The notes beneath the pieces are model-generated. The model ran no database searches, was not told the DNA's origin, and was given only the letters and a program-made list of their open reading frames with translations. Shown here piece after piece: positions 12,557 to 38,725 of a DNA stretch of 38,799 nucleotides. The DNA is from an uncultured Mollicutes bacterium. Its GTDB lineage: Bacteria; Bacillota_I; Bacilli_A; RFN20; CAG-288. Within the stretch, counting starts at the first letter, position 1, and each line of letters opens with the position of its first letter. Where the stretch lies: contig URQF01000002.1 of assembly GCA_900549915.1 (NCBI GenBank), positions 1 to 38,799 on the forward strand, read 5' to 3'. Made by a program: the position numbers and the translations under genes.

Positions 12557-12567
12557 TTATTGTTCCT

Positions 12568-16715: not shown

Positions 16716-16731
16716 AGTTAAATATCCTCCT

Positions 16732-17834: not shown

Positions 17835-17867
17835 TTTGTCCTCCTTCTGCATAATAAATAAAATAAG

Positions 17868-18230: not shown

Positions 18231-18282
18231 AATTTCCTCCATAAGAAAAGGGCCACCGAATGCCTCAGTGACCCTAACAGAT

Positions 18283-19809
18283 TTAATCTAGTGAGAACCA
18301 GAGACAAGGGTAAAAATAATCGCTAAACGAATCATCTTTTAGTTCCCAATCGATTCCAACGACTCTGTAACTTCTACCATACTTTGAATAACTTCTAGTC
18401 ATGAACGGTTTCGTACTACCTAACATAATCATTCTTTCTTTATACCTTGAATATTCTTCGGCACTCAGCAAGAATAATCTTCCGTAGGAATCATCTTCGA
18501 CTATATCTGACTCATTCAGCATTCTAGATTCAAGAGAATTATCTAAAATGGTTTCCAAAACTTTTGAGTCATCCCCAAAACAGATTCCCATTAGTTCTCC
18601 ACCTAAAACAGACTCATTAAGATAACTATTAAGAGATTCGTAGTCTAGATTTCCGTTTTTAATATCTTTAGACAAATCAAAATCATATAGACAATATGGC
18701 TTTTCAGATGTCACAAGTATCTTATCAGAACATTTATCTAGAAGATGCCATCTCATAGGAGGTCTTGAAGTAATTGACCCATTTGCATGCCACTTATATC
18801 TGTTTGATTTATAAGAAAATATTAATTCGGAACCATACTCTGCTCCATATGATTTAGCTATTGAAGTTAGAATAGAAACTAATTTTTTGTCTTTGACTTC
18901 GTCTCCGTAAAGTCCTGTATCTCCGTTTTGAAGGAGAGGGATTTTTATTGCTATCTCTTTTATAACTTCATCTGACGATAGATTTGTAATGTTTCTATCC
19001 CATGAGGTAAAAATATAGTTGTATTCTGAATCATAATAGAAAGGAATAGACGTTCCATCATTCTCATATCTGGGGGATGATCCTTTTTTATATAAGTCTG
19101 TTTTCAGAATTGTTCCATCTGGTGCTTTCCACGTTACTTTGTATCCTTCCCAGTTAATCTCGTCATATAATGCTATAAAGACAGTTGGAGAATAAATTGG
19201 TTGGATTTCTCTATCCCATCCAGCAAATTCGAAATCAGTTATTTGATGGCCGTTTATTTTTCTATCTCTCGTTGGATTGTCAGGTTCAACCGGAATATGC
19301 CCTGCGATTACAGCAGATTCCGAAATTAATGTCCCATCGTAGTCTTCGAACTTTACATTGAAATATTTGTTGGAATCCTCTTCAAACAAAGCATGAATGA
19401 CCATATTCGAATTAATATTGTCGAAATCATTGTCCCATTTTGAAAAGATGAACTTTGTGATAGTTCCATTATTGTTCAAATCGGATTTCGTAGGTTTACC
19501 ACCGTCATATATGGCAGGCATGCCTGGTTCTACAACAGAATGCGTGATTATATTATCATCACCATCTAAAAAATATACGACATATGTTCCGTAACGCTGG
19601 TAGTTATTTGGATCTTCTCCGAGTACAGTAACTTGCCACTCAAAAAAACTAAGGCTACCACCTGCGTTCTTGTAGTCTTCATATTGGTCTTTTTTAGTAT
19701 ATATGCTTACTTCCGTTGTTGGTTCGATTGGATGAGTAGAGCTTGGTCTGTTCTGTACACAGCTTGTAAGAATAAATATCGGAAGGTAGAATAAAATTTC
19801 TTTTCTCAT
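18283..19809 (-). CDS. Prophage-encoded lipoprotein with three Listeria-Bacteroides (Flg_new-type) repeats
   Basis: Signal peptide with lipobox ILTSC. There are three units of the form Y-x-V-x-F...G...P...F-x-GW/SW-D (e.g. FNVKFEDYDGTL...FEFAGWDREI). The C-terminal domain carries RLFLLSAEEY. Confidence 0.65.
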   Translation of the reverse strand: MRKEILFYLPIFILTSCVQNRPSSTHPIEPTTEVSIYTKKDQYEDYKNAGGSLSFFEWQVTVLGEDPNNYQRYGTYVVYFLDGDDNIITHSVVEPGMPAIYDGGKPTKSDLNNNGTITKFIFSKWDNDFDNINSNMVIHALFEEDSNKYFNVKFEDYDGTLISESAVIAGHIPVEPDNPTRDRKINGHQITDFEFAGWDREIQPIYSPTVFIALYDEINWEGYKVTWKAPDGTILKTDLYKKGSSPRYENDGTSIPFYYDSEYNYIFTSWDRNITNLSSDEVIKEIAIKIPLLQNGDTGLYGDEVKDKKLVSILTSIAKSYGAEYGSELIFSYKSNRYKWHANGSITSRPPMRWHLLDKCSDKILVTSEKPYCLYDFDLSKDIKNGNLDYESLNSYLNESVLGGELMGICFGDDSKVLETILDNSLESRMLNESDIVEDDSYGRLFLLSAEEYSRYKERMIMLGSTKPFMTRSYSKYGRSYRVVGIDWELKDDSFSDYFYPCLWFSLD

Positions 19810-19838
19810 GGTAATTCTCCCGATAATATCTTACCACT

Positions 19839-22800: not shown

Positions 22801-25800
22801 GCATTTTTCAAATTTTCTGTTGCTGTAGAATTAGCTTTCTCGGCATTTTGATAGTCAGTAGTAGCTGCGTTCAACTTATCCTTTGCATCAGACAGATTGC
22901 TTGCAGCAGTGGAATTCGCTGATTTCGCACTGTTATATTTCGTTGTAGCATCGGCCAATTTGCTTTCCGCATTACTCAGATTCGTGGCAGCGGTCGAGTT
23001 GGCTTGCTCGGCATTACCATATTTGGTTGTCGCATCATCCAATTTACTCTTGGCATCAGCAAGATTGTCCTTAGCAGTATTATTAGCTGTTTCAGCAGCA
23101 TTATACTTATTTGTGGCATCAGCTACTTTTTCGTTGTAGCTTGCTTCAGCAGCGGTGACACTGTCATTATATTTCTTTGTGGCAGCGTCAATTTTGGCCT
23201 GACTGTCTTTTGCCGCGGCATCATACTGTGCCTTTGCATCAGCAACAGACTTATCGTATTCTGTCTTAGCGTCATTCAATGTACTCTGGTACTGGTTCTG
23301 CGCAGATTCTAGTTTTCCGGCTGCATCATCACTTGCCTTTTTTGCCGCATCGTAAGATGATGAAGCATTCTGAAGGTTCTCCTCTGCCTTAGCTAATTTA
23401 TTCGCAGCAGTTTCACTATCTGTCTTTGCAGTATCATAAGCCGTTTTTGCGCCATTGTAGCTTGTCTGAGCATCATTTAATTTAGATGCTGCAGCGTCAC
23501 TATCTGTCTTTGCAGTATTATAGGCATCTTTTGCACTTCCGTAGTTTGTTTCAGCCTCTTTGAGTTTTGAGGTCGCTTCACTATTAGCAGAGGCTGCGCT
23601 GTTGTAGGCATCCTTAGCAGTGGAATATTCGCTTTCGGCTTTGGTGACTCTGTCGGCAGCACTATTGGCATTGCTCGCTGCAGAATTAGCAGAACTAGCA
23701 GCATTATTGGCATTCGAGGTCGCATTATTCAGATCTTCTTTGACGTCATCATCCAATTGCCCGATTGTAATACTCCCGTCAATATTTGCCGACTTCACAT
23801 GCAAATTCTTAGCTGTGACATTCGTTGTCTCGATTGTGTCGTTTACAATTTTAGTAATTCCGCCGCTGTCAACCTTACCATCTCCGCTACCAATCTGAAT
23901 ACTTCCTCGAATATTAGCTGCTGGAACTTGTAATTCTCCATCGACAATCTGACAGCCTCCGATACTTCCGGAGTTTGCGATAATCTCGCCATAGATTTTA
24001 GCGCCATTAGCAACTAAATATCCATCTGAATTGACAGAGAAAGAAGTATTATTCTCACCATTTTGAATTTCTATACTGCCACCTGTGATATTCAATCCAT
24101 TGGCAGTGACGTGACCTTCTCTATCGACTTTGAAGACAGTACCGTCATCACCTGTGATATTGATCTGACCGCTCTTTACGTCAATATCTCCAGATACTTT
24201 AATTTGTCCAGCGGAAAGTGTCTGAGAAATACTGGCATTATCAGCAACTAACATCTTGGCGACAAGTTTGTCAAGCTCGAACTGCGAGGCCTCCAAAATG
24301 CCTGTGCATTTAATACGCTCGGTTTGCAGCTGTCCAATCTGTGCCTTGCTCAATTTTGCATTGATTGCCTGAATATAGTCCGCTGTCACGGTTCTTGCAA
24401 CAATCTGGGATACCTTGTTCTCATCAGTATACCCAGTATCATTAGTAAGCGATGAGACATTATCACCAGTAGAAATCGAGCTGTCGCTAAGAGTATCTTT
24501 CTTCTCTCCTAACTCGATTTTCGTGTAAGAATTAAGGATAGCATTATACTCCGTAGAGATAACTCTTAGTTTCTCATCTACACCCAAATCTGGATAGATG
24601 ACTCCAACAGTATCTCCAATCTCAACAGATTTCAGAATCTTGAGATTATCAGCCTCTGTGATGCTCCATAAATCGAGGAATGAAACATCGGTAGACTTTT
24701 TGATTTTCCCAAGTTTATGTTTCTTGATATATTGTTGTGCTTTCTGTTTCAGTTTCTCTTTGGTCGGCTCTGACTCGAATTCAGAACTGAGATCTAGAGG
24801 AAGAACATACTGATGTTTCCTTGCTTTGGCATCATCAGTATCAAGTTTGATGAACTTCTCGTCGAGCTCGACATGGATAACCTTACTAGTTTCGGTTGTT
24901 GTTGATGCCTCTGATTGTGGAATGACTTCCGAATAATAAATGATCCTGTTCGAAGAAATATTGGATAAATCGGTAACCTTGCCATCGAAGACGACATCTC
25001 CTGCTTTATGGAATGTCCATCCTGACGTATCAGTCAGTTTTTTGAAATATCCATCCTTGACTGCATTACAGGAAACAACTGGGAATTTAGACCAGTTGAT
25101 CTTAATCCATTCTGGGTCTTTTCCCATTCCCTCGATCAAGGTAACACTCTGATTGTATACTTTTTCTTCATATCGAGACGTCTTTGAGTTCCAACAATAA
25201 ATTTTATCCTTATACTGACCTTCCGTAGCAACCTGGACTCCTGATTCATCTACAGGATGATATGGCTCACCACCTTCGCTATAAGATAACCATCCATCTT
25301 GATATGGTTTGTTTCCAACGATATAGACCTTAGTGAATCCAGCGTCCGTAGTATTGGTCGTTGTCGATGTTGTTTCTTTGTGATAAAAAGGATAGACAGC
25401 AGAATATAAATTCTCAGTTGTAGTCTCCTGAGTCATGTCAGTCCTATTCTTCGAATATCTGACCTCAACTCCCTTATCAGATCCACGTCTGCTGCAGAAT
25501 ATAACATTCCATTTGTCATACTTAAATTCAATATCATAAACGGAGCCAATTGAACCAGTAGTGCTTTCATCCGAGCTTGCACTATTGTCACCAGTTGCTG
25601 TCAGGAGAGCTTTAAGATTAGTCGGTGCCGTGAGCTGAAAAGTTTTATAAAATTTCTTATCGATAGAACGAGCGTTTATGAATTCGAACTTGTTTTCGAT
25701 AAGACAGTTTTTCTTGATGTTGTTTATTGTGTCAAGAAAATTAGCTCCTTTAAAACCGCTGACTGGGATGCCGTTCATATCGTATGAAATATGATTGGCA

Positions 25801-26060
25801 TCCACAGTAACGATTCCGTTAATAGGACGACTGATGCTTGCTATTCTGAAAGGCTGTGGGTCAGAAAATGGGTTCGGCTTGCAGTAGATAAGTCTGTTTT
25901 CACGAATCTTATCAAAAATCTGCCCCTTAACAGGGTATTTCAGCGAAAGAGTGTACTGATCATTAAGTCCTTCGGAAACCGTGCATTCTGTTGCATCCCG
26001 TAAAACCCCAAGTCCTAAACTGTCGAACTTGGTTTCATCCTCTTCAAATAGCAAAATCAT
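19839..26060 (-). CDS. Giant tail-associated protein (Tal / phage minor structural protein, 2073 aa)
   Basis: The N-terminus MILLFEEDETKFDSLGLGVL...LNDQYTLSLKYP matches the conserved start of siphophage Tal / prophage-tail endopeptidase-type proteins. The gene follows Dit. It has a central Ala/Asn-rich coiled coil, a long C-terminal region and an AGGAGG RBS. Confidence 0.8.
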   Translation of the reverse strand: MILLFEEDETKFDSLGLGVLRDATECTVSEGLNDQYTLSLKYPVKGQIFDKIRENRLIYCKPNPFSDPQPFRIASISRPINGIVTVDANHISYDMNGIPVSGFKGANFLDTINNIKKNCLIENKFEFINARSIDKKFYKTFQLTAPTNLKALLTATGDNSASSDESTTGSIGSVYDIEFKYDKWNVIFCSRRGSDKGVEVRYSKNRTDMTQETTTENLYSAVYPFYHKETTSTTTNTTDAGFTKVYIVGNKPYQDGWLSYSEGGEPYHPVDESGVQVATEGQYKDKIYCWNSKTSRYEEKVYNQSVTLIEGMGKDPEWIKINWSKFPVVSCNAVKDGYFKKLTDTSGWTFHKAGDVVFDGKVTDLSNISSNRIIYYSEVIPQSEASTTTETSKVIHVELDEKFIKLDTDDAKARKHQYVLPLDLSSEFESEPTKEKLKQKAQQYIKKHKLGKIKKSTDVSFLDLWSITEADNLKILKSVEIGDTVGVIYPDLGVDEKLRVISTEYNAILNSYTKIELGEKKDTLSDSSISTGDNVSSLTNDTGYTDENKVSQIVARTVTADYIQAINAKLSKAQIGQLQTERIKCTGILEASQFELDKLVAKMLVADNASISQTLSAGQIKVSGDIDVKSGQINITGDDGTVFKVDREGHVTANGLNITGGSIEIQNGENNTSFSVNSDGYLVANGAKIYGEIIANSGSIGGCQIVDGELQVPAANIRGSIQIGSGDGKVDSGGITKIVNDTIETTNVTAKNLHVKSANIDGSITIGQLDDDVKEDLNNATSNANNAASSANSAASNANSAADRVTKAESEYSTAKDAYNSAASANSEATSKLKEAETNYGSAKDAYNTAKTDSDAAASKLNDAQTSYNGAKTAYDTAKTDSETAANKLAKAEENLQNASSSYDAAKKASDDAAGKLESAQNQYQSTLNDAKTEYDKSVADAKAQYDAAAKDSQAKIDAATKKYNDSVTAAEASYNEKVADATNKYNAAETANNTAKDNLADAKSKLDDATTKYGNAEQANSTAATNLSNAESKLADATTKYNSAKSANSTAASNLSDAKDKLNAATTDYQNAEKANSTATENLKNAESKYQQAIKDYNAASIDLANKLAEGQQGAAALVEERLKNAKLNGNIDAKGFRIDENGIRSFTNRDADGNPIDSYNTLTTPETNGVYLSNDGLRMGEMPSTKPDDYDGSDRLDGKLSTFFQASRSFKIKFPSGKALKPDDYFQVMFDVIGATKSLDLKFAFYDKSGSTAIARYIVHYTADSTSYSRIKKTVSSPSSGDGVLRVPTAWNEECLIGVGYSYDGEEAVVGNVRVFKLYPKGLIALSDGTIIGTEMHIGGATVKGGVLTVPSANITGKITADVVESNEGHIANFDIQNGKLVNGSFVKLPSDSEMADLKKTRDDARNVRMKALDALNLAVSALNEAKAYGEQEKSLNGAISDDTNESINNADASKTAAESAYIQACSDYETADNDVKNVGTAINPADTTVDSIAAKSNISSPKAALYIGTDGIHLNQRVADSSDNITESNFKVTADGKIEADNCEINGKITSTEGQIGGLYISDKSIYYPREFSEFEKKTSYKVISNAIIGKKVFSKIGQIIQFVNEAAEQKIVDDEGIYIGTEGIRIGRNAKDYILNYASKGLKYPYSFGNTKVKIDTKTEHADIMKYQWEKGHGGFRLDKYGNMYMANSSINGNFFGNVYPNTNNDPFRHIFKVIGDLKGKHGFLYIGTLTSTQDDHNAGAVHIKGTVGPWVGQKQVIDIVISSRGGLSVSGFIHGGNDVCKNFDIVATDGHSMNEEDIRGNSGTSESPTYGLFLSFSSFYFISLDINSVGIMRKESYDSEFDEILKYRYDGNIFTSQSSASFDDEGKLASEFNGSGNIKVHSILEKRMHYPGAGPDSTINGSFNILCTDSDNNLICTSLHTTASSDRISFKTGENSENSFSIQGKNNALYDLGRIASQAQEALYGTRTVFTFSRNIYYDEEDEHESISYVYFFSRVMNEDQWWCIGTMDDPRYIFASQSYDYSGTANGSGGLSGSTKLQSINVNINNDGTVWVGNDGHRSKVWVMVVC
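22740..23735 (-). repeat. In-frame degenerate tandem repeats (Ala/Asn/Ser/Lys-rich coiled coil) within Tal
   Basis: The translation shows about four consecutive 28-aa (84-bp) units of the form ANSTAxxNLxxAxSKLxDATTKYxxAxx, flanked by looser SKLxxAxxxYxxAKxAY units. This low complexity generates the spurious plus-strand ORFs at 22897..23898. Confidence 0.75.
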
Positions 26061-26072
26061 ACAATTTTCCTC

Positions 26073-28688
26073 CTATAACGTCCACCAATTCGGCTTAATC
26101 TTAATCGTGATTCCTTCTATACCGGATTTATCCTGGACAAGATAGTTCAAAAGGTGAGATGTTGTTGGGTCTGAAGAGACCAGAAAATCGCCTTTCTTGT
26201 ACCATGCCCAAGAGGTCTTGTCATCTAAACGATAGTATCCATCTTTCTTGATATAGAGTAGAGCATGAACAGGATTACCATATTCGCTTTCCTCAATCTT
26301 GGATGTATACAGATCATTCTCTGGATACGATGGCAATGATTCCAAATAGTAAATAGTTGTATCATCACTATATTTACTTTCGTTAATCAGGTCACCATTA
26401 CTGAGTTTCTTCCACTCAGCATTTGTGTCCCATTTGTAGTAACCATCTTTAGTGGCGTAGACTCTATATTTAGAATCTACTCTGTCTTCATCCTTCTCTG
26501 CATCAATACCTTCAACCCATTCGAACTTCAGATATGGTGCTAATTCAGTCAACTTATCAAGCTGCTCCTGGTTAAATGAAAGATTATGACTCTGCTCGTA
26601 GCTCGTAGGGAGAGTCTCAATCATGCAGATGGTATTCTCATTTTCAGGACTTCCAAGATCAATGAAAGCGCCAATTTCCAAATCTTTCCACTCAGTCCAG
26701 ACATCACCGTCTTCTGAAGTTGACTCAAGTTTTCTGTATTTAGCTTTCTTTAAGACTTTAATCGACAAATCGCCAGAGTTGAGAATATCTTTCTTATCAT
26801 TGGCGACAACCGTAGAATCCAACCATTCAGGCCATCCTGATGATTTTGAATAATTCACTTTGGTCGCATCGTCAATGAAATAGAAAGTATTCGACTGAGT
26901 AATATCGCTGAAATAGTCTGGAACAGTGTCCCCGACATTGAGATGCTTCCAACTAGAGAACTGCTTTGGATCGTCTTCTTTCTCACAACCAGAGTAATTG
27001 GCTCTGAACCATCCTGCTTTCTTTGCAGTATAAACTGGGATTGTCAACGAACCTGTAACAGTAATAGGGCAAGCAGTTGTGACAATCTTCGTCTTGTTGC
27101 CATTCTTGTCTGTTTTTGTGCCATAAACATCCTCATATTGAGGAAGGACGTCAACATACTTGTAGTCGAGACTGGTCTTTGAATTCCCTAGGCTGCTAAG
27201 CATCGAACTCTGAAAAGCCTGTTTAAACAAACTCCAGGTGACGCTTCCTAAATCATGAGCATCGGCGTCGTAATACTCCCAGCCAGATCGATTCTTACTG
27301 AATTTCGACAACAGACCTGTCTTTTCCGCATAGAAGTATCCAGCCTTGCCAGTCTGATAATGTACCTTCTTCGGAGACCCATCAGAATCATAGTCAATAG
27401 AAATTTTTAGCCAATCAGGCATATCCGAATATTCGACATCCATCTCGGTTTTGCCGTTTACAATCTTGGCAGGGCAGTATTTTATTGTCACCTGACTATC
27501 CTGAGTAGAATCAGCAAGAACGACTCCTCCTGAAGCGACATATTTCCATTTCTTGAAACCAGTCGCATAGAAGTAGCCTCCAGAAGTTAGAGATTTATGA
27601 ACTTTGTAACTATACAAAGCTCTTCCGCTTTTATCTGTTTTTCCTTCCGACACAAGTTCTACAAATCCGGAATCGGAAACATTCTCACTGGTATTTGTAA
27701 GGAATGTGGATGAATAACACTGCTCTTTAAGGATGTCATCGAATGATTTGAATGAGTAGTTTTTTCCTTTCTCCTGAGCGAGTAATGAATAAGCCTCAGC
27801 ATAGAAAACATCCTGGTACGCAATCTTCTTAGAATTGAAAGTTGGGATAACGACTTTCTTCTGCTTTTGTTCAAGAACTCTATCATAAGGAGAATAGACA
27901 ATATCCATCTCAGACTGAGTGTCTGCTATTACGTCGTTATATGATGGTATAGACCTAAGGTTTCTCTCGTATTTTGAAATTGTGACTTTAGTGCTTCCTT
28001 TTGGAAACTTTGGAAAAACTTTTCCGTTGATATTTATCTTACTCGCAAGATCCTGAGTCTGATAGTAGACTTCTTGATTCTCAGAATCTATCGTAATAGA
28101 AGGAGTATCAATGTCTTTGAATGTGACATCACTAATTGTCTCCCCATCATTCTCAAGACTCAGCAGGATTTCAGAAGAAATATCAGGCTTTAATCCTTCA
28201 AGAGTAATTTCAGGAAGTGATGCGAATTGAGAAGGGTTTTCCAAAGAGAACTCATTCGAAGTAAACGATAGTATCTTCTCTCCGCTCTTAAGAAAGCGCT
28301 GGGGTTTGCAATCGAAATCGACCGAAAAACTGATGGCTCCATCACAAATATTAGTGAAAGAGCCACCAGACGAGTATTTAGCCAATCTGTAGGCTGTAGG
28401 ATCGTAATCATCTTCGAGGCGCCGATACCCTCTGTCCGAAGTCAACCACTTTACAATATCTTGCGAATTGGATATGAAATCAGTTCCTGGCTTAAATCCA
28501 ACACCTAAGGAATAGGTTCGAGTGATGTTTTTATATGAACCATTATCAGTAATAACATCTCCGTTTCGTCCAGGAATATGAGTAGATGTAACGTCTTTCT
28601 CTGGATATTGATATGCAGGCGGAGACTGAATCACCAGCCCAAGATCTAGAGAAGATATACCATTCCAAACTAGTTTTTTAAGAGCCAT
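26073..28688 (-). CDS. Distal tail protein (Dit), greatly extended (871 aa)
   Basis: The N-terminus LVWNGISSLDLGLVIQ...THIPGRNGD (Arg is CGA) matches the Sipho_tail/Dit family. It lies between TMP and Tal. About 600 extra residues suggest an evolved Dit with add-on domains. Confidence 0.75.
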   Translation of the reverse strand: MALKKLVWNGISSLDLGLVIQSPPAYQYPEKDVTSTHIPGRNGDVITDNGSYKNITRTYSLGVGFKPGTDFISNSQDIVKWLTSDRGYRRLEDDYDPTAYRLAKYSSGGSFTNICDGAISFSVDFDCKPQRFLKSGEKILSFTSNEFSLENPSQFASLPEITLEGLKPDISSEILLSLENDGETISDVTFKDIDTPSITIDSENQEVYYQTQDLASKININGKVFPKFPKGSTKVTISKYERNLRSIPSYNDVIADTQSEMDIVYSPYDRVLEQKQKKVVIPTFNSKKIAYQDVFYAEAYSLLAQEKGKNYSFKSFDDILKEQCYSSTFLTNTSENVSDSGFVELVSEGKTDKSGRALYSYKVHKSLTSGGYFYATGFKKWKYVASGGVVLADSTQDSQVTIKYCPAKIVNGKTEMDVEYSDMPDWLKISIDYDSDGSPKKVHYQTGKAGYFYAEKTGLLSKFSKNRSGWEYYDADAHDLGSVTWSLFKQAFQSSMLSSLGNSKTSLDYKYVDVLPQYEDVYGTKTDKNGNKTKIVTTACPITVTGSLTIPVYTAKKAGWFRANYSGCEKEDDPKQFSSWKHLNVGDTVPDYFSDITQSNTFYFIDDATKVNYSKSSGWPEWLDSTVVANDKKDILNSGDLSIKVLKKAKYRKLESTSEDGDVWTEWKDLEIGAFIDLGSPENENTICMIETLPTSYEQSHNLSFNQEQLDKLTELAPYLKFEWVEGIDAEKDEDRVDSKYRVYATKDGYYKWDTNAEWKKLSNGDLINESKYSDDTTIYYLESLPSYPENDLYTSKIEESEYGNPVHALLYIKKDGYYRLDDKTSWAWYKKGDFLVSSDPTTSHLLNYLVQDKSGIEGITIKIKPNWWTL

Positions 28689-30648
28689 GAGCTAATTTAC
28701 CGCCTTTCTGCCTCTTACTCAGTTCAATATTAACCTGCTGAGCAAAGGTCTTAGGATCGTCAACACCATAGACATTGAATACTGGTTGATAAGTGTTCGT
28801 CGAGCTATATGTATTTGATGTACTTCCATAATCCGAGCTATTCCGATTGGAACTGCGCATGTTTTTCGACACACTTTGAGTATTATCATAAGAAGAATCA
28901 GAAGAGACATCGATATCTCCAGAGACGTCATCGAGTTGACTCTGAATCTTGGAATCGTCAACGACAGGGTTAACATTGACGTCATAACTGTTGTCATTTC
29001 CGAAAGCACTATTAAATGCATCTTGAACAGCATCAACGCCTTCTCTAGTAGATTTAGCTAAATCGTCATTCCTATCTTTCCTTGTCTTTGAGATATTACT
29101 TGTGGCAGTACGTGCAGCCTCAGTAATACCACTTCCAGATGCCCACCGTTCTATAACAGCTTCAGTTGATGAATTGTCGACCTCAAGATTATTACGCATC
29201 CAGTTGGCGACCTTTTTTCCTACCCAGTTATTACTGAACATTGTGGCAAGACCTTCAATAATACCATTCCATAGTTCTCCTAATAGATACTTGATGGAAT
29301 TGATTAGATCTGACCAGATGTTATGCAAGACATCACCTATAAATTTAAGTATCTTACCAATACATGTCTTAATAGTTTCTTTGAAGACATAAGCAATACC
29401 TTCAATAGCTTCCGGAATCATCTTGCAAAGTGCAGCAAGGAATATAATCCTATCTTTTAGTAATGTTCCGACAAGGGTTCCAGCCATCCGGAAAATCATA
29501 CCAGTTACCTTCAGAACCATCTGGACAATTACCTTAACTAATTTTCCAATATTTTTGATTAATGCGTTAATCCTAGCAACCAAGAAATTAATAAGAGATT
29601 TTACGAGTTTTGGTGCGTTTGCTGTTAACAAATTAATTACTTTGATGATAATACTCAGAACCTTAGACATCATAGATGGAATATGTTCGTCCAAGGCAGA
29701 AAGGAGCAATTCAAGAACATTAAATACAGTATCGATTAAATCTTTTGCATTCTCATTGATGAGTTTGAGGACTCCTTTAACTAGATCGTTAACTAGATCA
29801 ATTATCTTTGGTATCCAGTCTTTCAACAAGGCATAGATCGAATCGCCATCTTCCATCAAATTATTGATGAATGTAGTGATTAACCCATGTATCTGCTCCA
29901 TCGCATTTTGAAGTCCAGAAACTAGTGCATCAGTGATGGCAATTGAAAGTTCAGATAGACTTTCCGCTATAGTTTCTATGTTCTCAGTGACAGTTGTGCA
30001 GAATGGAACTAGATTGGTAGTCAGTGCTTCGATTCCCATAGAGGCAGTCAAGATGCCGATACCAATCAACGTAAGAGCAGCACTTAGAGCCAATATCGCA
30101 CGTATCGCCGCCATAATCACTACTGAAACAAGTGCTAAGGCAGTAAAGGCTCCAGCGATTGCAAGAATATCAACGAACATTTTTCCGATGTTCAATTCCT
30201 GCATTGCTTCCATAGCTTTTGAGAAAACTAGGATGGCTGAAGAAAATACGAGCCTGGCAGATGCAGCAACAAGCAAAGATGCTGAGAAAACGACTAGACC
30301 AGCAACTCCGATTAGACCGGTTCCTCCGCTGGCAGATATCAAAGCCACAATTCCAGCAAATAATGCTAATACTGAGACCAATACTCCAGCTGCGATTAGC
30401 CTAGATTTCCATGGCACAGCAGCTAATTGTTTTACTGCTTCGGCAAAGACTAGGAGAGATAAACTAATAGCAGTCCTGGATCCTACTGCTGCAACAAGTT
30501 TAGTTGCACTACTCATAGAGTTAGATAACTTGATGAGGATCGCAATAACCCCAGCATTCAAGGTTAGCATTGTTTCTATTATTTCAATGTTTGTTTGACT
30601 TATACCAAGTTCTCTTTGAAAATAGTTTTTGAAAACGAATAGGAGCAT
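28678..30648 (-). CDS. Tape measure protein, probably 5'-truncated
   Basis: It sits directly upstream of Dit. Composition is helical, Ala/Leu/Ile-rich, with hydrophobic segments and a polar C-terminus. There is no SD before the ATG at 30648. The frame stays open upstream to 30721 but is overlapped there by a plus-strand gene. Confidence 0.6.
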   Translation of the reverse strand: MLLFVFKNYFQRELGISQTNIEIIETMLTLNAGVIAILIKLSNSMSSATKLVAAVGSRTAISLSLLVFAEAVKQLAAVPWKSRLIAAGVLVSVLALFAGIVALISASGGTGLIGVAGLVVFSASLLVAASARLVFSSAILVFSKAMEAMQELNIGKMFVDILAIAGAFTALALVSVVIMAAIRAILALSAALTLIGIGILTASMGIEALTTNLVPFCTTVTENIETIAESLSELSIAITDALVSGLQNAMEQIHGLITTFINNLMEDGDSIYALLKDWIPKIIDLVNDLVKGVLKLINENAKDLIDTVFNVLELLLSALDEHIPSMMSKVLSIIIKVINLLTANAPKLVKSLINFLVARINALIKNIGKLVKVIVQMVLKVTGMIFRMAGTLVGTLLKDRIIFLAALCKMIPEAIEGIAYVFKETIKTCIGKILKFIGDVLHNIWSDLINSIKYLLGELWNGIIEGLATMFSNNWVGKKVANWMRNNLEVDNSSTEAVIERWASGSGITEAARTATSNISKTRKDRNDDLAKSTREGVDAVQDAFNSAFGNDNSYDVNVNPVVDDSKIQSQLDDVSGDIDVSSDSSYDNTQSVSKNMRSSNRNSSDYGSTSNTYSSTNTYQPVFNVYGVDDPKTFAQQVNIELSKRQKGGKLAHGS

Positions 30649-32895: not shown

Positions 32896-35604
32896 TTAGT
32901 CCGCTAGAATTTCGAGTAAGCCAGAGGAAATCCTCTTTCCAGAAACCTTATCAAAGAGAAGAATGCCTTTTCCTTTGGTATTAATCTCCAAAGTCTCGTT
33001 CCTACTATAGTCAGAATCACCGAAAATAACAGAAGTCAGAAGATAGCCATCGACAGAAAGACGGATGGTCGTTTCCCTGCCGGAAGGCATTGCGGAATAG
33101 ACTTTTCCTTCCATGCCTTTTCCTTGTTCAGCAATCGTGAAGAACTCAGGACGGATACCAATGACATAATCATCTTTTTCAATGACTTTCTCATCACGAC
33201 GTTCTTTATCACCATCCTCAGTTAACCTGTGATAGTTGAAGAGAGTATCTTTGTTTCCTTTTTCAACATAGGAACGAAGTTTCTTTAAACGAAGAAGTTC
33301 TTCTTCTTTCTTCTCTGCTTCCAAATCTCGTGTCTTGATTTCCTCTTCTAAGGAAATCGGTGCATTCGGATAGAAGACTGCATGCCGATTATTAAAGAAA
33401 GTCCTATATAAAGAACCATCTTCTCTCTCCTTTACCTTCGTTTCAATGAAGGTAATCGCTGGATTACCGACAAAGTCAGCAACAAAGAGATTATTCGGAC
33501 GACGATAGACCGTCAATGGTGCATCATACTGCTGAAGAACACCATTGTTCAATAAGCAGATGTGGGTGGCAAGAGTCCTTGCTTCGAGCTGATCATGGGT
33601 AACATAGACAAAGGTAGCTCCGGTATCCCGGTGCAAACGCTTAAGCTCAGAACGCCTTTCCAGACGAAGCTTTGCATCAAGGTTGGAAAGCGGTTCATCC
33701 CTGAAGAGAACCTTCGGTCCAGGAGCTAACGTACGTGCAATAGCAACACGCTGCTGCTGACCACCAGATAATTCATTCGGGAAACGATCCCTGAATTCTT
33801 CGACTTTGACAATACGGGCTGCATGGCGAAGTTTCAACTCGATTTCTTCTTTGTCCAAAGCACGGACTTTGGAAAGATGGCAGGCTTTTCCATTAATCTT
33901 GGAGATAGCAATATTCCTCTCGCCACGGGCAGAATTGATAAGGGAAGTGTATTTTTCCCTCTCCATAGAGTAATCCTTCAGAGTCTTGTATTTTGGCTCT
34001 AAGGCAGCATAAGTCCTCTTAACAAGGGAAGCAGCAGCCTCGCGGATCCTATCATGAGCTTCTTTGTACTCTTTCTTATTTGGATGAGAGACCGATTCGA
34101 CGACTTCTTCCAAGAATTCAACAAGACCATTACGGATAGCTTCTTCTGTTCCAAGGCAAGCATCATCTGCTTTTTCATAGAAAGCTTTGATGGCATGGTT
34201 CTTCTTGGCTTCATCGATGTGATTGACTAAGTCAAGGACATTGGCTTTAGCTTCCGGAACAACACGTTCTGCCTGATCAAGGAACCGTTTCCTAGCCGCT
34301 TTGTTTGCTTTATGATCAACCTTGTAACTAGCCCCTTCCACGTATTCGAATGATTTGATAATCTTGTTCTGATCTTCTTTCGGAAGATAAGAGATTTCCT
34401 TCTTCAGGGAAGAATAGAATTCATCAAGGGTTCCATGTCCGATAGCAGAGATAAGTTTATCGAAATAAGGTTCAATACCCTCGCTGATCTGCAAAGAATA
34501 GTTCCGCATCGTCTTATTGTTCGAAACCATCTGGGCATTGATTTTCTTTTCATCATTGGTTGCATAAGCTACCATCCTCTGCTGAAGCAAAAGAATCGTC
34601 CTATGAATAGAATCATCTCCAAGGAAGAAAAGAGAATCCTTGATTTCTTCAAAGAACGCATTAATCTTATCTTTTTCTTCTAGATAAGCAGGAATATTCT
34701 CTTCCCTAATCTGGATATCCTTTTTCAGAACTTCACGTTCGCTCAAAGGAAGAAGACTCCTAGCTTCCTTCCTCTTCTCGATATGATTCGCTAAATGTTG
34801 ATTCTTCTCAGAAAGCTTCCTCTCAACACCAAAGAGACGATTTTCCTCTTTCAGAGTATCTCCCGCTTTTTCAAGTGCATAAGCCTGCTTGAGGAAGGAG
34901 TCTACATTTCCGCCATCTGTCCTAGCCTTGTTATAGCCTGGAATCTGAACAAGCTGACCATCATCTAAGACCTGAATATCTTTCTGCATCCAAGCTGCTT
35001 TCCTTTGATCCAAAGCAGCATTGCATTCTGAGATTTTCAAAGCGACCTTATTCTCGACATCGCCATTTTCCAAATGAAGCTTAAATACTTCCTTTGCAGT
35101 GTATTGACTGACTGTGAATTCATCAATAATCTTGATGATAGCACGGCTATCAATAATACGTCCTTTCTTGTCTTTGGCATCATTGACAAGCTTAATGACT
35201 TTATTAGGATCCTGAAGAACACGAATAACATCCTTACGAGTCTTGTATTTGAAATCACAGACCGGGAGCTTTTCCTTGACGTTCTTAAGACCGAAAGTGA
35301 TGTTCTGATAGACGGTCCTATTGGGCCAGAGAGCATAGTTCTGGAAAAGGAAACCGACATCACGCTTATTAGCAGGAATGTTGATACCTGCCTCGGAATC
35401 AAAGACAACCTTATCGCCGATTTTGATTTGTCCGGAAGTCGGTGTTTCAAGACCCGCAATCCTACGAAGGATGGTTGTCTTACCGCATCCGGAAGGTCCT
35501 AAAAGAGTAATGAACGACTTGTCTGGAATATCTAAGCTGACATGATCGGTTGCATAGAAGTCTTTCCAGCGTTTGACAATATCCGTTAAAACAATACTTG
35601 GCAT
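32896..35604 (-). CDS. ABC transporter ATP-binding protein, MalK/MsmX/UgpC type, with a ~470-aa internal insertion
   Basis: Walker A is GPSGCGKTT. TILR-[AGG]-IAGLE has its AGG at 35461..35463. FQNYALWPN-[AGG]-TV has its AGG at 35317..35319. The signature is LSGGQQQRVAIAR (both Arg are CGT). Walker B LF-[AGG]-DEPLSNLD has its AGG at 33700..33702. LE-[AGG]-R has its AGG at 33655..33657. THDQLEA-[AGG]-TLA has its AGG at 33577..33579. A C-terminal regulatory domain is present. Confidence 0.92.
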   Translation of the reverse strand: MPSIVLTDIVKRWKDFYATDHVSLDIPDKSFITLLGPSGCGKTTILRRIAGLETPTSGQIKIGDKVVFDSEAGINIPANKRDVGFLFQNYALWPNRTVYQNITFGLKNVKEKLPVCDFKYKTRKDVIRVLQDPNKVIKLVNDAKDKKGRIIDSRAIIKIIDEFTVSQYTAKEVFKLHLENGDVENKVALKISECNAALDQRKAAWMQKDIQVLDDGQLVQIPGYNKARTDGGNVDSFLKQAYALEKAGDTLKEENRLFGVERKLSEKNQHLANHIEKRKEARSLLPLSEREVLKKDIQIREENIPAYLEEKDKINAFFEEIKDSLFFLGDDSIHRTILLLQQRMVAYATNDEKKINAQMVSNNKTMRNYSLQISEGIEPYFDKLISAIGHGTLDEFYSSLKKEISYLPKEDQNKIIKSFEYVEGASYKVDHKANKAARKRFLDQAERVVPEAKANVLDLVNHIDEAKKNHAIKAFYEKADDACLGTEEAIRNGLVEFLEEVVESVSHPNKKEYKEAHDRIREAAASLVKRTYAALEPKYKTLKDYSMEREKYTSLINSARGERNIAISKINGKACHLSKVRALDKEEIELKLRHAARIVKVEEFRDRFPNELSGGQQQRVAIARTLAPGPKVLFRDEPLSNLDAKLRLERRSELKRLHRDTGATFVYVTHDQLEARTLATHICLLNNGVLQQYDAPLTVYRRPNNLFVADFVGNPAITFIETKVKEREDGSLYRTFFNNRHAVFYPNAPISLEEEIKTRDLEAEKKEEELLRLKKLRSYVEKGNKDTLFNYHRLTEDGDKERRDEKVIEKDDYVIGIRPEFFTIAEQGKGMEGKVYSAMPSGRETTIRLSVDGYLLTSVIFGDSDYSRNETLEINTKGKGILLFDKVSGKRISSGLLEILAD

Positions 35605-35607: not shown

Positions 35608-37422
35608 TTAATTTCCTCCGACGCCTTTATCGATAGAAGCACCCGTAAGCTTATTGACAATCAAATTGAAGAGAAGAACCGTTAAGATGATAAGAAGGTT
35701 GAGAGCATTTGCCGACTGCGGCCACCACTGCATCCAGCTATCAAGCAAGGTTGTCCTTAATACAGTCTGTCCAGAAGCAAGAAGGACAAACAGAGATAAC
35801 TCACGCCTGCAGGAAGTGAATGGTAAGAGGTATCCAGAGATAACAGTTGATTTCTGGATAGGAACGATGATTCGAAGCATACGTTTCCACCAAGGAATGT
35901 TCTGAATAACGGCTGATTCTTCGATTTCTCCAGAGAGCTGCCTCCTAGCAGAGATACCGCTACGGGAAGCAAATGGAAGATACTTGAAGGCTCCAACGAG
36001 AATGAGAAGAACAATAGAATTCTGGATGCCAAGCGTTGTTCCAATACTTAAGAAAGCAGCACCTAAAGCCATGGAAGGCCTGAGGTAAGGTAAGAAGGCC
36101 AGATTATCGACTAACGAAGAAAGGAAAGTACCACGACGTTTTGCAACTGCATATCCAATTAAGATACCAAGCGTACCAGCAATCAAACAGCAAGAAACTG
36201 ACAAGAGTATCGAGTTCCGGAAAGCAAGCCATACTTGCGGTTCAAATAAAATACCGACTAATCCGTTACCCGCATCTGTCTCTGTCCGACTGATCCAGTA
36301 CTGAAGTGTCCTAGTGGAATAGTCTCCAGAACGAACACAAAGAGATTCTAATGCAAAGGTAATTAAAGGAAGAACCGAGCAGAACAAGGATAAGAAGACA
36401 AGGATAACAGCAATAGGATAGTTCCATCCACGAAGCTTGATATAAGAGACCTGACCGGATTTTCCAGTAACCGTGGTAAAGTTCTTACGCTTGCCAGTGA
36501 ACCACTGATTGAGAAGAAGAATACCAACACCTAAGACAATCCTGACAATAGCAAAGATATAGGCCTGTCCGTAGAATCCTTTGTTTGTAAACTGCTTCCT
36601 ATAGGTAGTGAGAACGTCTTGTCCACCGCCAAGGTACTGAGGAACAGCATAAGCAGACCTTGAAGACGAAAAGACTAAAAGGAAGGTAGAAATAATCGAA
36701 GGCATAACAATCGGAAGAGTAATCTTTCTTGTGATTTTCCAGCGGCTTGCCTTTAAAATTGTTGCTGCTTCTTCTAAGTTGGCATCCCTATTACGTAAGA
36801 TACCACCGATAAGAATGTAGGCAAACGGAGCATAGTGCCTTCCTAATACAACAGCACAGGGGACGATACCATAAACCATTCCGTTTGGAACCGAAATATG
36901 GAATAAGTTATAGAGCATACCGCCAACACCAGTACCAATGCTCGGATTCTGGAAGAAGTTCTGCCAGAAGGTAGCCAAAGTCCAAGAAGGCCTGATATAC
37001 GGGAAGACGAAGATACTGGAAAGGAATTTCTTTGCCTTGATATCAGTTCGAGTAATCAAGAAGGCGACAATGCCTCCATAGAGAATAGCGATAACACTCG
37101 CTAGAAGCGACATTTCCAATGAATTCAATAAAGGCTTCCAGAAATATGTTTTTGACCTCGAACTGGCAAAAACACGATTCCACCAGGCTGTCGTGAAGGA
37201 GCCTGGAATCAAGCCAAATACAATTTCACTGATGCTGACCGTAAATGTTGACTGGACAAGAGAAACCAAAGGATAAATCGTGAAAACAAGAAGAACCGCT
37301 GCAAAAATCACAAGCAGAACATTCGCAGGTACAGAAAAGTACCGGCGAACACTGTTCAAACTATGTTTGATTTTTCCTTCTTTCTTTGGCCTATGGTCGA
37401 TAATTAAATCCCTATTAGCCAT
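35608..37422 (-). CDS. ABC transporter permease, fused double domain (about 12 TM)
   Basis: Two EAA-type loops are present: NLEEAATILKASRWKITRKITLP and EIEESAVIQNIPWWKRMLRIIVP. An AAGGAG RBS is present. AGG at 36787..36789 (LRN-x-D) and 36079..36081 (LPYL-x-PS) lie in normally hydrophobic positions. Confidence 0.85.
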   Translation of the reverse strand: MANRDLIIDHRPKKEGKIKHSLNSVRRYFSVPANVLLVIFAAVLLVFTIYPLVSLVQSTFTVSISEIVFGLIPGSFTTAWWNRVFASSRSKTYFWKPLLNSLEMSLLASVIAILYGGIVAFLITRTDIKAKKFLSSIFVFPYIRPSWTLATFWQNFFQNPSIGTGVGGMLYNLFHISVPNGMVYGIVPCAVVLGRHYAPFAYILIGGILRNRDANLEEAATILKASRWKITRKITLPIVMPSIISTFLLVFSSSRSAYAVPQYLGGGQDVLTTYRKQFTNKGFYGQAYIFAIVRIVLGVGILLLNQWFTGKRKNFTTVTGKSGQVSYIKLRGWNYPIAVILVFLSLFCSVLPLITFALESLCVRSGDYSTRTLQYWISRTETDAGNGLVGILFEPQVWLAFRNSILLSVSCCLIAGTLGILIGYAVAKRRGTFLSSLVDNLAFLPYLRPSMALGAAFLSIGTTLGIQNSIVLLILVGAFKYLPFASRSGISARRQLSGEIEESAVIQNIPWWKRMLRIIVPIQKSTVISGYLLPFTSCRRELSLFVLLASGQTVLRTTLLDSWMQWWPQSANALNLLIILTVLLFNLIVNKLTGASIDKGVGGN

Positions 37423-37498: not shown

Positions 37499-38725
37499 TT
37501 ACTTCTTATTACCGACTATCTGGTTGATCCAGTCTTCTGTTTCGACTTTGACAGTATTGATGTATTCGCCATCTTCCCTGACAAGGTTCTGTTTATAGAA
37601 AGCAAGATCTTTCTTATCGTCTTTATTCTTAGCAATCGTATGATTGGAAGAGTAGCATCCAATGGACTTTCCCCAAGGATTAAATCCTTCTGCTGTCCTC
37701 CTGTAGTTGGTAAAGAGCCTTGCAGTATATGGACGTGGTGCCTTAGTTGTTAACTGAGCATATAAGGCATAACCAAAGCCAGAGAACGGAGCAATTGGTT
37801 TGTCTTGCCAAGCACCGACAGTGAGGTTGTCAGCAACAACAGAGCTATCACGGAGTTTAGAAAGAACGAATAATCCCATCTTTCCAGCGTTCTTTGTGTC
37901 CGAAAGACCGGCTGCTAACTTTGTATCAGAGGTATAAGACTTAATATCAGCATTAGCTAAGAATTTTCCAATCCACTCATAGGAAGCATTCTTGTAACCA
38001 GCAGAAGCAACATAGTCTTTCTTGAAATAGTCTTTATAAGCCTGAGTCCTCTTAGCAACCCAGGTGTCTTTCGTTAACCTGGTCAAGAAGTTCCTGTTAA
38101 CCATTTCAGAGTTCGGGTTCTTGAAGTAAATTTTATCTTTGAATTTTGCTTCCGTAAGTTCCCAGACATTAGAGATGTTCGGAACATCTGTACCAGTGTT
38201 GTTCCAGATAAAAAGCTTATTGATATATTGATCGACAAGCGGAACAAGATCGCCTTCATCAAGGTTTGCTTTGAAGGTGTCACTGACATAGTTGGTCAGA
38301 ATTTTGGTGGGACTATTACGATAAGTAGCTAACCTAGCAGAATCCTGAATTAAAACGAAGGAAGCACCACTCGAATTATCCTTGGCAGAATATTCAGTAG
38401 TAATCTTGGTATAGATTTCAGAGTCCTTCCTCTTTGTACCAGTGGATTTTGCCGGATCAAGATTGAGTGCAGGATACTTTTTGATAAAGTCTTTAACAGC
38501 ATCAGCAATACGAGAAGAGTTACCGTAAGCTTTGAATGTGCCAGTCTCAGCTTTTGCTTTTTCTAATAATTCAGCATCAGTCCTTTTAGTTCCTAAGACA
38601 AACGGATCTGTAACTGTCGGTTCAGTACCTTTTCCACCGGCTGTCGTAGGAGTAGAATTAGAAGTTCCACCGCATCCAACTAATAGCGGTAAAAGTAAGA
38701 GAGTAAGACCAAAATGTTTTTTCAT
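37499..38725 (-). CDS. ABC transporter substrate-binding lipoprotein
   Basis: Signal peptide with lipobox LLVGCGG. It is the first gene of the operon, preceded by AAAGGAGG. The size and pattern fit a type-I/II solute-binding protein; the substrate is unknown. Confidence 0.75.
   Translation of the reverse strand: MKKHFGLTLLLLPLLVGCGGTSNSTPTTAGGKGTEPTVTDPFVLGTKRTDAELLEKAKAETGTFKAYGNSSRIADAVKDFIKKYPALNLDPAKSTGTKRKDSEIYTKITTEYSAKDNSSGASFVLIQDSARLATYRNSPTKILTNYVSDTFKANLDEGDLVPLVDQYINKLFIWNNTGTDVPNISNVWELTEAKFKDKIYFKNPNSEMVNRNFLTRLTKDTWVAKRTQAYKDYFKKDYVASAGYKNASYEWIGKFLANADIKSYTSDTKLAAGLSDTKNAGKMGLFVLSKLRDSSVVADNLTVGAWQDKPIAPFSGFGYALYAQLTTKAPRPYTARLFTNYRRTAEGFNPWGKSIGCYSSNHTIAKNKDDKKDLAFYKQNLVREDGEYINTVKVETEDWINQIVGNKK

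What the first reader, a model, noticed from the sequence alone, without database searches (positions are those of the whole stretch)
33577..35463. Five canonical Met positions of an ABC ATPase are all encoded by AGG
The MalK/MsmX-family motifs are among the best conserved in biology. Five of them place AGG at the Met position: LRMIAGLE after Walker A (AGG at 35461..35463, preceded by CGT for the true Arg), the Q-loop HMTV (AGG at 35317..35319), Walker B LLMDEPLSNLD (AGG at 33700..33702), LRxEMR (AGG at 33655..33657, followed by CGT) and THDQxEAMTLA (AGG at 33577..33579). Five out of five in one protein, with adjacent genuine Arg residues using CGT, is very unlikely to reflect coincidental Met-to-Arg substitutions. 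This is especially so at the buried D-loop and Walker B neighbours.
Basis: partly seen in the sequence, partly recalled or inferred. Interest (0 to 1): 0.85.

Follow-up and report, generated by a model that had tools for sequence, protein, structure and literature searches.

The report
Known AGG-to-methionine code, rediscovered
The AGG codons at methionine positions of this transporter ATPase are real and show that the organism reads AGG as methionine instead of arginine, a rare bacterial genetic-code change already described in 2021 for a small clade of uncultivated gut Bacilli.

Summary
The gene is window 32896..35604 (-), a 902-aa MalK/MsmX-type ABC ATPase. All five AGG codons are at the stated coordinates.

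- Seven of its 24 AGG codons lie on columns where at least 80% of about 114 homologues have Met. None lies on a conserved Arg column; those columns use CGT, CGC or CGA.
- The pattern holds elsewhere in the window: MnmE, KsgA, the permease, the binding protein and the prophage tail genes.
- A Codetta-style likelihood over 23 AGG columns gives Met lnL -71, Leu -100 and Arg -166.
- The 54%-identical syntenic ortholog from a standard-code relative has ATG at these sites.
- Against a 94%-identical strain, all 8 codon changes that involve AGG are AGG<->ATG.
- Host-gene usage is AGG 240, ATG 90 and CGT 133 per 10,000 codons. This matches the published signature of the AGG->Met clade (GTDB UBA7642, now Ca. 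Enterosoma, family CAG-288; Shulgina & Eddy 2021).

The decoding tRNA(CCU) is not in the window. Placement of the organism in the published clade is inferred, not proven.

Verdict: real and correctly interpreted, but already known.

Side observations:
- a 470-aa helical insertion in the ATPase;
- a truncated prophage that uses mostly ATG for Met.

The parts
32896..35604 (-). MalK/MsmX-type ABC transporter ATPase, 902 aa, with 24 AGG and 8 ATG codons
   Evidence: ORF. Pfam ABC_tran, E = 1.9e-28. PDB MalK 1g29, E = 9e-72, in two blocks: aa 3-108 and 579-729. Codon counts.
35461..35463 (-). AGG at aa48, Met column of LRMIAGLE after Walker A
   Evidence: Met in 112 of 114 homologues. The two exceptions (Arg) are the paralogues P0009 and P0011, which also carry Arg at the other Met columns.
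35317..35319 (-). AGG at aa96, Met column after the Q-loop (P-H/N-M-T-V)
   Evidence: Met in 112 of 114.
33790..33792 (-).
   Evidence: Met in 108 of 114, Leu in 4.
33700..33702 (-). AGG at aa635, Met column in Walker B (LFMDEPLSNLD)
   Evidence: Met in 114 of 114.
33655..33657 (-). AGG at aa650, Met column of LRLEMR
   Evidence: Met in 112 of 114.
33577..33579 (-). AGG at aa676, Met column after the H-loop (THDQxEAMTLA)
   Evidence: Met in 111 of 114.
33076..33078 (-).
   Evidence: Met in 113 of 114.
33871..35280 (-). All-helical insertion of about 470 aa (aa 109-578) splitting the nucleotide-binding domain between FGLKN and the helix that precedes LSGGQ. It holds 13 of the gene's 24 AGG codons.
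   Evidence: Split PDB alignment. AlphaFold model of the outgroup ortholog P0003 has pLDDT about 90 across the insert. Foldseek against PDB matches only the MalK core.
35608..37422 (-). Fused ABC permease (604 aa, two BPD_transp_1 stretches) of the same operon; 15 AGG, 8 ATG
   Evidence: Codon comparison with outgroup locus L028.
37499..38725 (-). Putative substrate-binding protein of the operon (408 aa); 10 AGG, 3 ATG
   Evidence: The assignment rests on synteny only; there is no Pfam hit.
700..2052 (+). mnmE, an independent witness of the code: 11 AGG, and the start codon is the only ATG
3392..4207 (+). ksgA/rsmA, another witness: the 6 alignable AGG codons face Ala, Leu, Leu, Val, Leu, Phe in B. 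subtilis KsgA
11634..30648 (-). Truncated prophage (holin, tail genes, 2073-aa tail endopeptidase, C-terminal fragment of the tape measure). Few AGG codons, but those present lie on Met or hydrophobic columns.

Best explanation
The organism translates AGG as methionine. AGA and CGN still mean arginine, and AUG remains the start codon and a minority Met codon. The 'Arg' residues at Met positions of the ABC ATPase are therefore artefacts of translating with the standard table; the real protein has normal Met residues there.

Mechanism, taken from the literature and not shown in this window: a tRNA with anticodon CCU, descended from tRNA-Arg(CCU), has acquired methionine identity elements (A73, G2:C71, C3:G70, loss of A20). 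It is presumably charged by MetRS. After the reassignment, many ATG codons drifted to AGG, which became the dominant Met codon.

The window most likely comes from the published recoded clade: GTDB UBA7642, now Ca. [quoted passage not shown]
For: **Shown here**
1. ATPase: 7 AGG on conserved Met columns and 0 on conserved Arg columns. Conserved Arg columns use CGT 11, CGC 2, CGA 1.
2. Likelihood over 23 alignable AGG columns (ATPase and MnmE): Met -71.1, Leu -100.2, Ile -101.1, Arg -165.7. Controls behave as expected: ATG->Met, AGA and CGT->Arg, AAG->Lys.
3. The pooled homologue residue profile under AGG is M 46%, ILVF 36%, RK 1.6%. Under ATG it is nearly the same (37/40/1.1). Under CGN+AGA it is the opposite (RK 70%).
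4. MnmE would have no internal Met under the standard code. Its 11 AGG codons lie on M/I/L/V/T columns.
5. In the syntenic operon of a standard-code relative (L028), the window's AGG codons face M 14, I 8, L 6, F 3, and no Arg or Lys appears among the eight commonest partners. L028 has ATG 264, AGG 16 and AGA 161 per 10,000 codons.
6. Against strain L030, 8 of 8 changes involving AGG are AGG<->ATG. None goes to AGA or CGN.
7. Host-gene usage is AGG 240, ATG 90, CGT 133, AGA 71 per 10,000 codons, with GC 0.41.

**From the literature**
- The published recoded genomes have AGG 209-235, AUG 59-69, CGU as the top Arg codon, and GC 0.42-0.46 (PMC8629427).
- The tRNA(CCU) with Met identity is reported in PMC8629427 and PMC13092985.

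**Supporting lead**
Metagenome contig L120 carries a tRNA(CCU) with G2:C71, C3:G70, A73 and no A20. A tRNA-Arg(CCG) follows 13 nt downstream, which is the arrangement the paper describes.
Against: - No tRNA gene lies in the window or in the fetched strain loci, so the decoding machinery of this genome was not seen.
- L120 could not be tied to this organism. Its own upstream ORFs carry AGG in Arg-like contexts.
- Taxonomic placement is indirect. The genome-contig scan failed to retrieve the ortholog. The nearest named MnmE relatives are only 'Bacilli bacterium' (58-61% identity) and 'Candidatus Enterosoma' (53%).
- There are no proteomic data. Some Arg misincorporation at AGG through wobble by tRNA-Arg(UCU) cannot be excluded.
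- A few AGG codons lie on non-hydrophobic columns (Thr, Ala, Cys majorities), as also happens for ATG.
Confidence: 0.94

Rival explanations
1. Ambiguous or dual decoding. AGG is read mostly as Met, but a significant fraction is read as Arg, because tRNA-Arg(UCU) wobbles onto AGG.
For: AGA is still used as Arg in host genes (71 per 10,000 codons; AGA columns score as Arg), so a tRNA(UCU) must exist. Shulgina & Eddy raise this possibility themselves.
Against: AGG sits at the most constrained Met positions of several essential proteins, at 240 per 10,000 codons. Substantial Arg misincorporation there would be costly. AGA usage is reduced relative to the standard-code relative (71 versus 161 per 10,000), which fits lowered tRNA(UCU) demand.
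Confidence: 0.04
2. Standard code with genuine Met-to-Arg substitutions. The lineage tolerates Arg at these positions.
For: None beyond the formal possibility. One AGG column (aa891) has Arg in 28 of 114 homologues.
Against: It would require Arg at 7 invariant Met columns of one ATPase, zero internal Met in MnmE, and the same shift in every gene tested. True Arg columns never use AGG (13:0 versus 0:33, P = 1e-11). Within the clade, AGG exchanges only with ATG.
Confidence: 0.005
3. AGG is reassigned to another hydrophobic residue (Leu or Ile) rather than Met.
For: About a third of AGG columns have Ile, Leu or Val as the majority residue.
Against: Met beats Leu and Ile by about 29-30 lnL units over 23 columns. 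The AGG column profile mirrors that of ATG, which also often sits on I/L/V columns. Within-clade exchanges are with ATG only.
Confidence: 0.01
4. Systematic sequencing or assembly artefact, or a base modification, that converts ATG to AGG in the reads.
For: AGG and ATG differ by a single base.
Against: The same AGG codons appear in independent assemblies from different projects and pipelines (Logan, ENA, NCBI; 377 cluster members). ATG persists at all starts and at 90 per 10,000 codons. The neighbouring prophage in the same contig keeps ATG as its main Met codon.
Confidence: 0.003

Closest known systems
AGG->Met genetic code of the uncultivated Bacilli clade in GTDB genus UBA7642 / Ca. Enterosoma (family CAG-288, order RFN20); Shulgina & Eddy 2021, eLife (PMC8629427)
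   Same: - AGG lies on conserved Met columns.
- AGG is more frequent than AUG (240 versus 90 per 10,000 here; 209-235 versus 59-69 published).
- CGU is the preferred Arg codon and AGA is retained as Arg.
- GC is about 0.41-0.43.
- Close standard-code relatives have AGA-dominant Arg usage, rare AGG and normal ATG.
- Phage genes associated with the host also read AGG as Met.
   Different: Nothing in the coding signal differs. Identity of the source genome with one of the three published species was not shown, and the tRNA(CCU) was not seen for this genome. The prophage remnant here uses far less AGG (40 per 10,000) than the two published AGG->Met phages (174-177 per 10,000).
AGG->Met in green-algal (Sphaeropleales) mitochondria (Noutahi et al. 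2019, as cited in PMC8629427)
   Same: The same codon is reassigned to the same amino acid.
   Different: That case is an organellar genome and an independent origin. The window is bacterial: mnmE, ksgA, an ABC importer operon and a siphophage-type prophage.
MalK / MsmX / PotA-type ABC importer ATPases (PDB 1g29, 2d62, 1q12, 6yir)
   Same: Walker A, Q-loop, LSGGQ, Walker B/D-loop, H-loop and the C-terminal beta regulatory domain all align (E = 9e-72 to 1g29). The gene lies in an operon with a permease and a binding protein.
   Different: A helical domain of about 470 aa is inserted between aa 108 and 579 (902 aa in total, against about 370). More than 100 relatives carry a shorter version of about 170 aa.

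Membership tests
AGG->Met recoded Bacilli (UBA7642 / Ca. Enterosoma clade) | AGG codons align to columns conserved for Met (or hydrophobic residues) and not for Arg | tested here: met
   Majority-Met versus majority-Arg columns are 13 versus 0. lnL is Met -71 versus Arg -166.
AGG->Met recoded Bacilli (UBA7642 / Ca. Enterosoma clade) | AGG is the dominant Met codon (about 210-235 per 10,000), outnumbering AUG (about 60-70) | tested here: met
   Host genes have AGG 240 and ATG 90 per 10,000 codons, start codons included. Strain loci L030 and L152 give 246/104 and 260/89.
AGG->Met recoded Bacilli (UBA7642 / Ca. Enterosoma clade) | AGA and CGN keep the Arg meaning; CGU is the preferred Arg codon | tested here: met
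   AGA and CGT columns score as Arg. CGT, at 133 per 10,000, is the commonest Arg codon.
AGG->Met recoded Bacilli (UBA7642 / Ca. Enterosoma clade) | Nearest standard-code relatives have ATG at the same sites, rare AGG and AGA-dominant Arg usage | tested here: met
   L028 is the syntenic ortholog (54% identity), with ATG 264, AGG 16 and AGA 161 per 10,000. The window's AGG codons face Met 14 times, with no Arg or Lys among the eight commonest partners.
AGG->Met recoded Bacilli (UBA7642 / Ca. Enterosoma clade) | tRNA(CCU) with Met identity (A73, G2:C71, C3:G70, no A20) next to tRNA-Arg(CCG) | tested here: inconclusive
   There is no tRNA in the window or in the strain loci. A tRNA with exactly these features and this arrangement was found on metagenome contig L120, but it could not be linked to this organism.
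AGG->Met recoded Bacilli (UBA7642 / Ca. Enterosoma clade) | Phylogenetic placement inside the three-species recoded clade | tested here: inconclusive
MnmE relatives at 87% identity or more carry Arg at the AGG columns, and all relatives at 65% or less carry Met, so the clade is tight. Named relatives are 'Bacilli bacterium' and 'Ca. Enterosoma'. Codon usage is closest to published species 1 and 2.
MalK/MsmX-type ABC importer ATPase | Walker A, Q-loop, LSGGQ signature, Walker B/D-loop and H-loop in order | tested here: met
   GPSGCGKT aa 36-43, Q-loop aa 87-98, LSGGQ aa 612-616, DEPLSNLD aa 636-643, THD aa 669-671.
MalK/MsmX-type ABC importer ATPase | C-terminal regulatory (TOBE-like) beta domain | tested here: met
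   aa 812-892 align to 2it1 residues 276-357 (E = 3e-4). The AlphaFold model has beta strands from residue 711 to 892.
MalK/MsmX-type ABC importer ATPase | Contiguous nucleotide-binding domain, total length about 350-400 aa | tested here: not met
   An insertion of about 470 aa splits the domain; the protein is 902 aa. It is a variant architecture within the family.

The most novel reading that the evidence does not exclude
The most novel reading that the evidence allows has two parts.

1. The window comes from a lineage of the recoded clade that has not been individually described.
2. Its truncated prophage uses ATG four times more often than AGG, and AGA more than CGT, like the standard-code relatives. 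Yet three of its five conserved internal Met columns in the tail endopeptidase are already AGG. This could be a natural snapshot of a phage lineage that crossed from standard-code Enterosoma relatives into a recoded host and is only partly adapted to the new code.

Separately, the 470-aa helical domain inserted in a MalK-type ATPase has no structural match and may be a new regulatory module.
Probability: 0.2. Interest if true: 0.5.

Novelty: already known. Interest (0 to 1): 0.3.

Why it matters
AGG->Met in these gut Bacilli was among the first sense-codon reassignments found in bacteria, so the phenomenon is important. It was published in 2021 and re-examined in 2026, and this window adds no new principle.

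The practical consequence is for annotation.
- Every protein from this contig in the public databases is mistranslated. For example, 24 of the ATPase's 32 Met residues appear as Arg, and MnmE appears to have no internal Met.
- This weakens Pfam and homology hits and would mislead structural or functional inference.
- The large clusters of identical mistranslations in Logan, ENA and NCBI (377 members for this ATPase) show that the error is widespread.

The case also shows that a reader without tools can detect a code change from one conserved protein.

Tried and rejected
- **Organism identification.** The search for related loci on genome contigs with the ATPase chose poor peptide patterns from the insertion.
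- **Exact look-up of the window protein.** It is not on record, so I used the 99%-identical P0001 and cluster members instead.
- **tRNA search.** No tRNA was found in the window or in seven strain and outgroup loci. Most hits were ordinary tRNA-Arg(CCU), because G2:C71, C3:G70 and A73 are common. Only L120 had the described tandem arrangement, and it could not be linked to the window.
- **Sample accessions.** Literature searches for SRR9018564, ERZ808299, SRR1747028 and SAMEA5848816 found nothing useful.
- **Prophage relatives.** None were found in IMG/VR. Only distant tail endopeptidases were found in GenBank phages.
- **Rfam.** No match in the window.
- **Insertion domain.** Foldseek of the ATPase model against PDB matched only the MalK core.
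- **Hypothesis rejected.** I considered that the AGG-poor prophage is a standard-code element being mistranslated. I rejected this because its AGG codons also lie on Met or hydrophobic columns and exchange with Met among its 76-94% relatives.
Full report
**What is at the coordinates**

The finding lies inside one ORF, window 32896..35604 on the minus strand (902 aa).
- Pfam finds ABC_tran (E = 1.9e-28).
- phmmer against PDB gives MalK and other sugar-importer ATPases as best hits (1g29, E = 9e-72). The match is in two blocks: query aa 3-108 with MalK 3-108, and query aa 579-729 with MalK 107-255. A weaker match covers the C-terminal regulatory domain.
- The protein is therefore a MalK/MsmX-type ATPase with about 470 aa inserted between the Q-loop region and the helical-subdomain helix that precedes LSGGQ.
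- It is the last gene of a binding-protein / fused-permease / ATPase operon (37499..38725, 35608..37422, 32896..35604).

**Checking the observation**

The flanking CGT Arg codons are as described.

I aligned the protein with 120 database homologues.
- The five columns are Met in 111-114 of 114 non-clade sequences.
- Two further AGG codons (aa 605 and 843) also lie on Met columns.
- Three more (aa 734, 793, 868) lie on Leu/Ile columns.
- Of the 11 columns with Met conserved at 80% or more, the query has AGG at 7 and ATG at 2.
- The 15 conserved Arg columns carry CGT 11, CGC 2, CGA 1, plus one CAT and one AAG, and never AGG.
- The chance that a codon of frequency 24/902 fills 7 of 11 Met columns is 2.8e-9.

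Arg at these columns occurs in only four homologues. Two are the same-clade orthologues, P0001 (99% identity) and P0002 (83%). The other two are P0009 and P0011. P0009 comes from a paralogous transporter operon in a genome with AGG 239 and ATG 97 per 10,000 codons.

P0003-P0006 are 54% identical and share the large insertion. They and all other relatives have Met. So Arg is not common at these columns in standard-code relatives.

**The signal is genome-wide, not gene-specific**

| Test | Result |
|---|---|
| Host-gene codon counts | AGG far exceeds ATG; mnmE has 11 AGG and its only ATG is the start |
| MnmE versus 114 homologues | All 11 AGG lie on M/I/L/V/T columns. Relatives at 87% identity or more show Arg there; every relative at 65% or less shows Met or a hydrophobic residue |
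| KsgA versus B. subtilis KsgA | The six alignable AGG face Ala, Leu, Leu, Val, Leu, Phe |
| Syntenic operon of standard-code relative L028 | The window's AGG face M 14, I 8, L 6, F 3, with no Arg or Lys among the eight commonest partners. L028's ATG face the window's 'Arg' 14 times |
| Codetta-like likelihood, 23 AGG columns | Met -71.1, Leu -100.2, Ile -101.1, Arg -165.7. Control codons decode normally |
| Pooled residue profile | AGG: M 46%, ILVF 36%, RK 1.6%. ATG: 37/40/1.1. CGN+AGA: RK 70% |
| Fisher test on majority columns | AGG 13 Met and 0 Arg; Arg codons 0 Met and 33 Arg; P = 1e-11 |
| Codon changes versus strain L030 (94% nt identity) | All 8 changes involving AGG are AGG<->ATG; none goes to AGA or CGN |

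The last result is the behaviour expected of synonymous Met codons.

**Comparison with what is known**

- In that clade AGG is the dominant Met codon (209-235 per 10,000, against AUG 59-69).
- CGU is the preferred Arg codon and GC is 0.42-0.46.
- Outgroups have AGA-dominant Arg usage, rare AGG and normal AUG (source data).

Later papers place the clade in the genus Ca. Enterosoma and confirm a 5-bp-stem tRNA(CCU) with Met identity.

The window's host genes have AGG 240, ATG 90, CGT 133, AGA 71 per 10,000 codons and GC 0.41. Strain loci L030 and L152 are similar. The standard-code relative L028 looks like the published outgroups: ATG 264, AGG 16, AGA 161, GC 0.37. The nearest named MnmE relatives are 'Bacilli bacterium' and 'Candidatus Enterosoma'.

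I conclude that this is the published reassignment, most probably in one of the published species or a very close relative. Membership of the clade by phylogeny could not be tested directly, because the genome-collection scan failed.

**Mechanism**

What is shown here is the decoding outcome, AGG = Met. What is inferred from the literature is the agent: a tRNA(CCU) of Arg ancestry that gained Met identity (A73, G2:C71, C3:G70, loss of A20) and sits immediately upstream of tRNA-Arg(CCG).

No tRNA lies in the window or in the fetched strain loci. A pattern scan of metagenome contigs recovered one contig, L120, with the following:
- a tRNA(CCU) at 5047..5123 with acceptor stem GGCCGGG/CTCGGCC, A73, and D-loop AGCATGGTA without A20;
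- 13 nt downstream, a tRNA(CCG) that has A20.

This matches the published description. However, I could not connect L120 to this organism. Its upstream mobile-element ORFs use AGG in mixed contexts: one ATG<->AGG difference between two paralogues, but several Arg-like contexts. I treat it as a lead only.

**Rivals**

- Genuine Met-to-Arg substitutions are excluded by the multi-gene pattern and by the AGG<->ATG exchanges.
- Reassignment to Leu or Ile is disfavoured by about 29-30 lnL units.
- A sequencing artefact is excluded by independent assemblies (377 cluster members from Logan, ENA and NCBI). It is also excluded by the retention of ATG at start codons and in the adjacent prophage.
- Partial ambiguity through tRNA-Arg(UCU) wobble cannot be excluded without proteomics.

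**Seen in passing**

1. The ATPase insertion (aa 109-578) is predicted as a confident all-helical domain (pLDDT about 90 in the outgroup ortholog). Foldseek finds no PDB match apart from the MalK core. More than 100 relatives of about 540-550 aa carry a shorter insertion at the same site.
2. Window 11634..30648 is a truncated prophage: holin, tail genes, a 2073-aa tail endopeptidase, and a tape-measure fragment equal to the last 630 aa of a protein of about 2150 aa.
   - Its Met codon usage is inverted relative to the host (AGG 40, ATG 160 per 10,000) and AGA exceeds CGT.
   - Even so, its AGG codons lie on Met or hydrophobic columns and exchange with Met among its 76-94% relatives.
   - It therefore reads the host code but resembles it much less than the two published AGG->Met phages do.
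3. The island is strain-variable. L027, L030 and L152 lack it.
4. A 249-nt direct repeat (203-451 and 8367-8615, 91% identity) has its second copy abutting the integrase gene. Each copy contains a conserved 32-aa hydrophobic ORF.

**Verdict**

It is explained by a known alternative genetic code. Novelty: already known. Interest is low to moderate. The main value is practical, since public translations of this lineage are systematically wrong, together with the side observations above.

Noticed in passing
window 33871-35280 (-), aa 109-578 of the ATPase: An all-helical domain of about 470 aa is inserted in the nucleotide-binding domain of a MalK-type ATPase. AlphaFold pLDDT is about 90 in the outgroup ortholog P0003. 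Foldseek finds no PDB match beyond the MalK core. More than 100 relatives of 540-550 aa carry a version of about 170 aa at the same site.
   Followed up: partly
window 11634-30648 (-): Truncated prophage: holin, tail genes, a 2073-aa tail endopeptidase, and a tape-measure fragment equal to the last 630 aa of a protein of about 2150 aa. Met codon usage is inverted relative to the host (AGG 40 and ATG 160 per 10,000, against 240 and 90) and AGA exceeds CGT. Even so, its AGG codons lie on Met or hydrophobic columns.
   Followed up: partly
window about 8300-30553, compared with L027, L030 and L152: The integrase, helicase fragment and prophage block is absent from three closely related strains. 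L030 has an RHS/AHH toxin and a DNA methylase at the same place. L152 has a reverse transcriptase gene after the 725-aa lipoprotein gene.
   Followed up: partly
window 203-451 and 8367-8615: A 249-nt direct repeat (91% identity) lies 8164 nt apart. The first copy is upstream of mnmE and the second abuts the 3' end of the integrase gene (8626-9564). Each copy contains a conserved 32-aa hydrophobic ORF on the minus strand (244-342 and 8408-8506). It may be an att-like duplication or a small toxin-like gene.
   Followed up: no
L120 5047-5213 (metagenome contig): A tRNA(CCU) with G2:C71, C3:G70, A73 and no A20 is followed 13 nt later by a tRNA-Arg(CCG) that has A20. This is the arrangement published for the AGG->Met clade. 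It is not linked to the window's organism, and AGG contexts in the neighbouring mobile-element ORFs are mixed.
   Followed up: partly
L156 (ENA ERZ27272151 k141_55852) 478-5552: A paralogous binding-protein / fused-permease / 550-aa ATPase operon from an AGG-rich genome (AGG 239, ATG 97 per 10,000). Its ATPase also shows 'Arg' at most of the Met columns (5 of the 7 tested).
   Followed up: partly
window 6130-8334 (+): A 734-aa predicted lipoprotein with an HExxH motif (HETGH) and no Pfam or PHROG hit. It is conserved in strain L152 and has 14 AGG and 8 ATG codons.
   Followed up: no
window 9638-10519 (-): A 293-aa ORF matches only the middle of a phage DNA helicase profile (phrog_62 positions 907-1127 of 1881), so it is probably another truncated prophage gene next to the integrase.
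   Followed up: no
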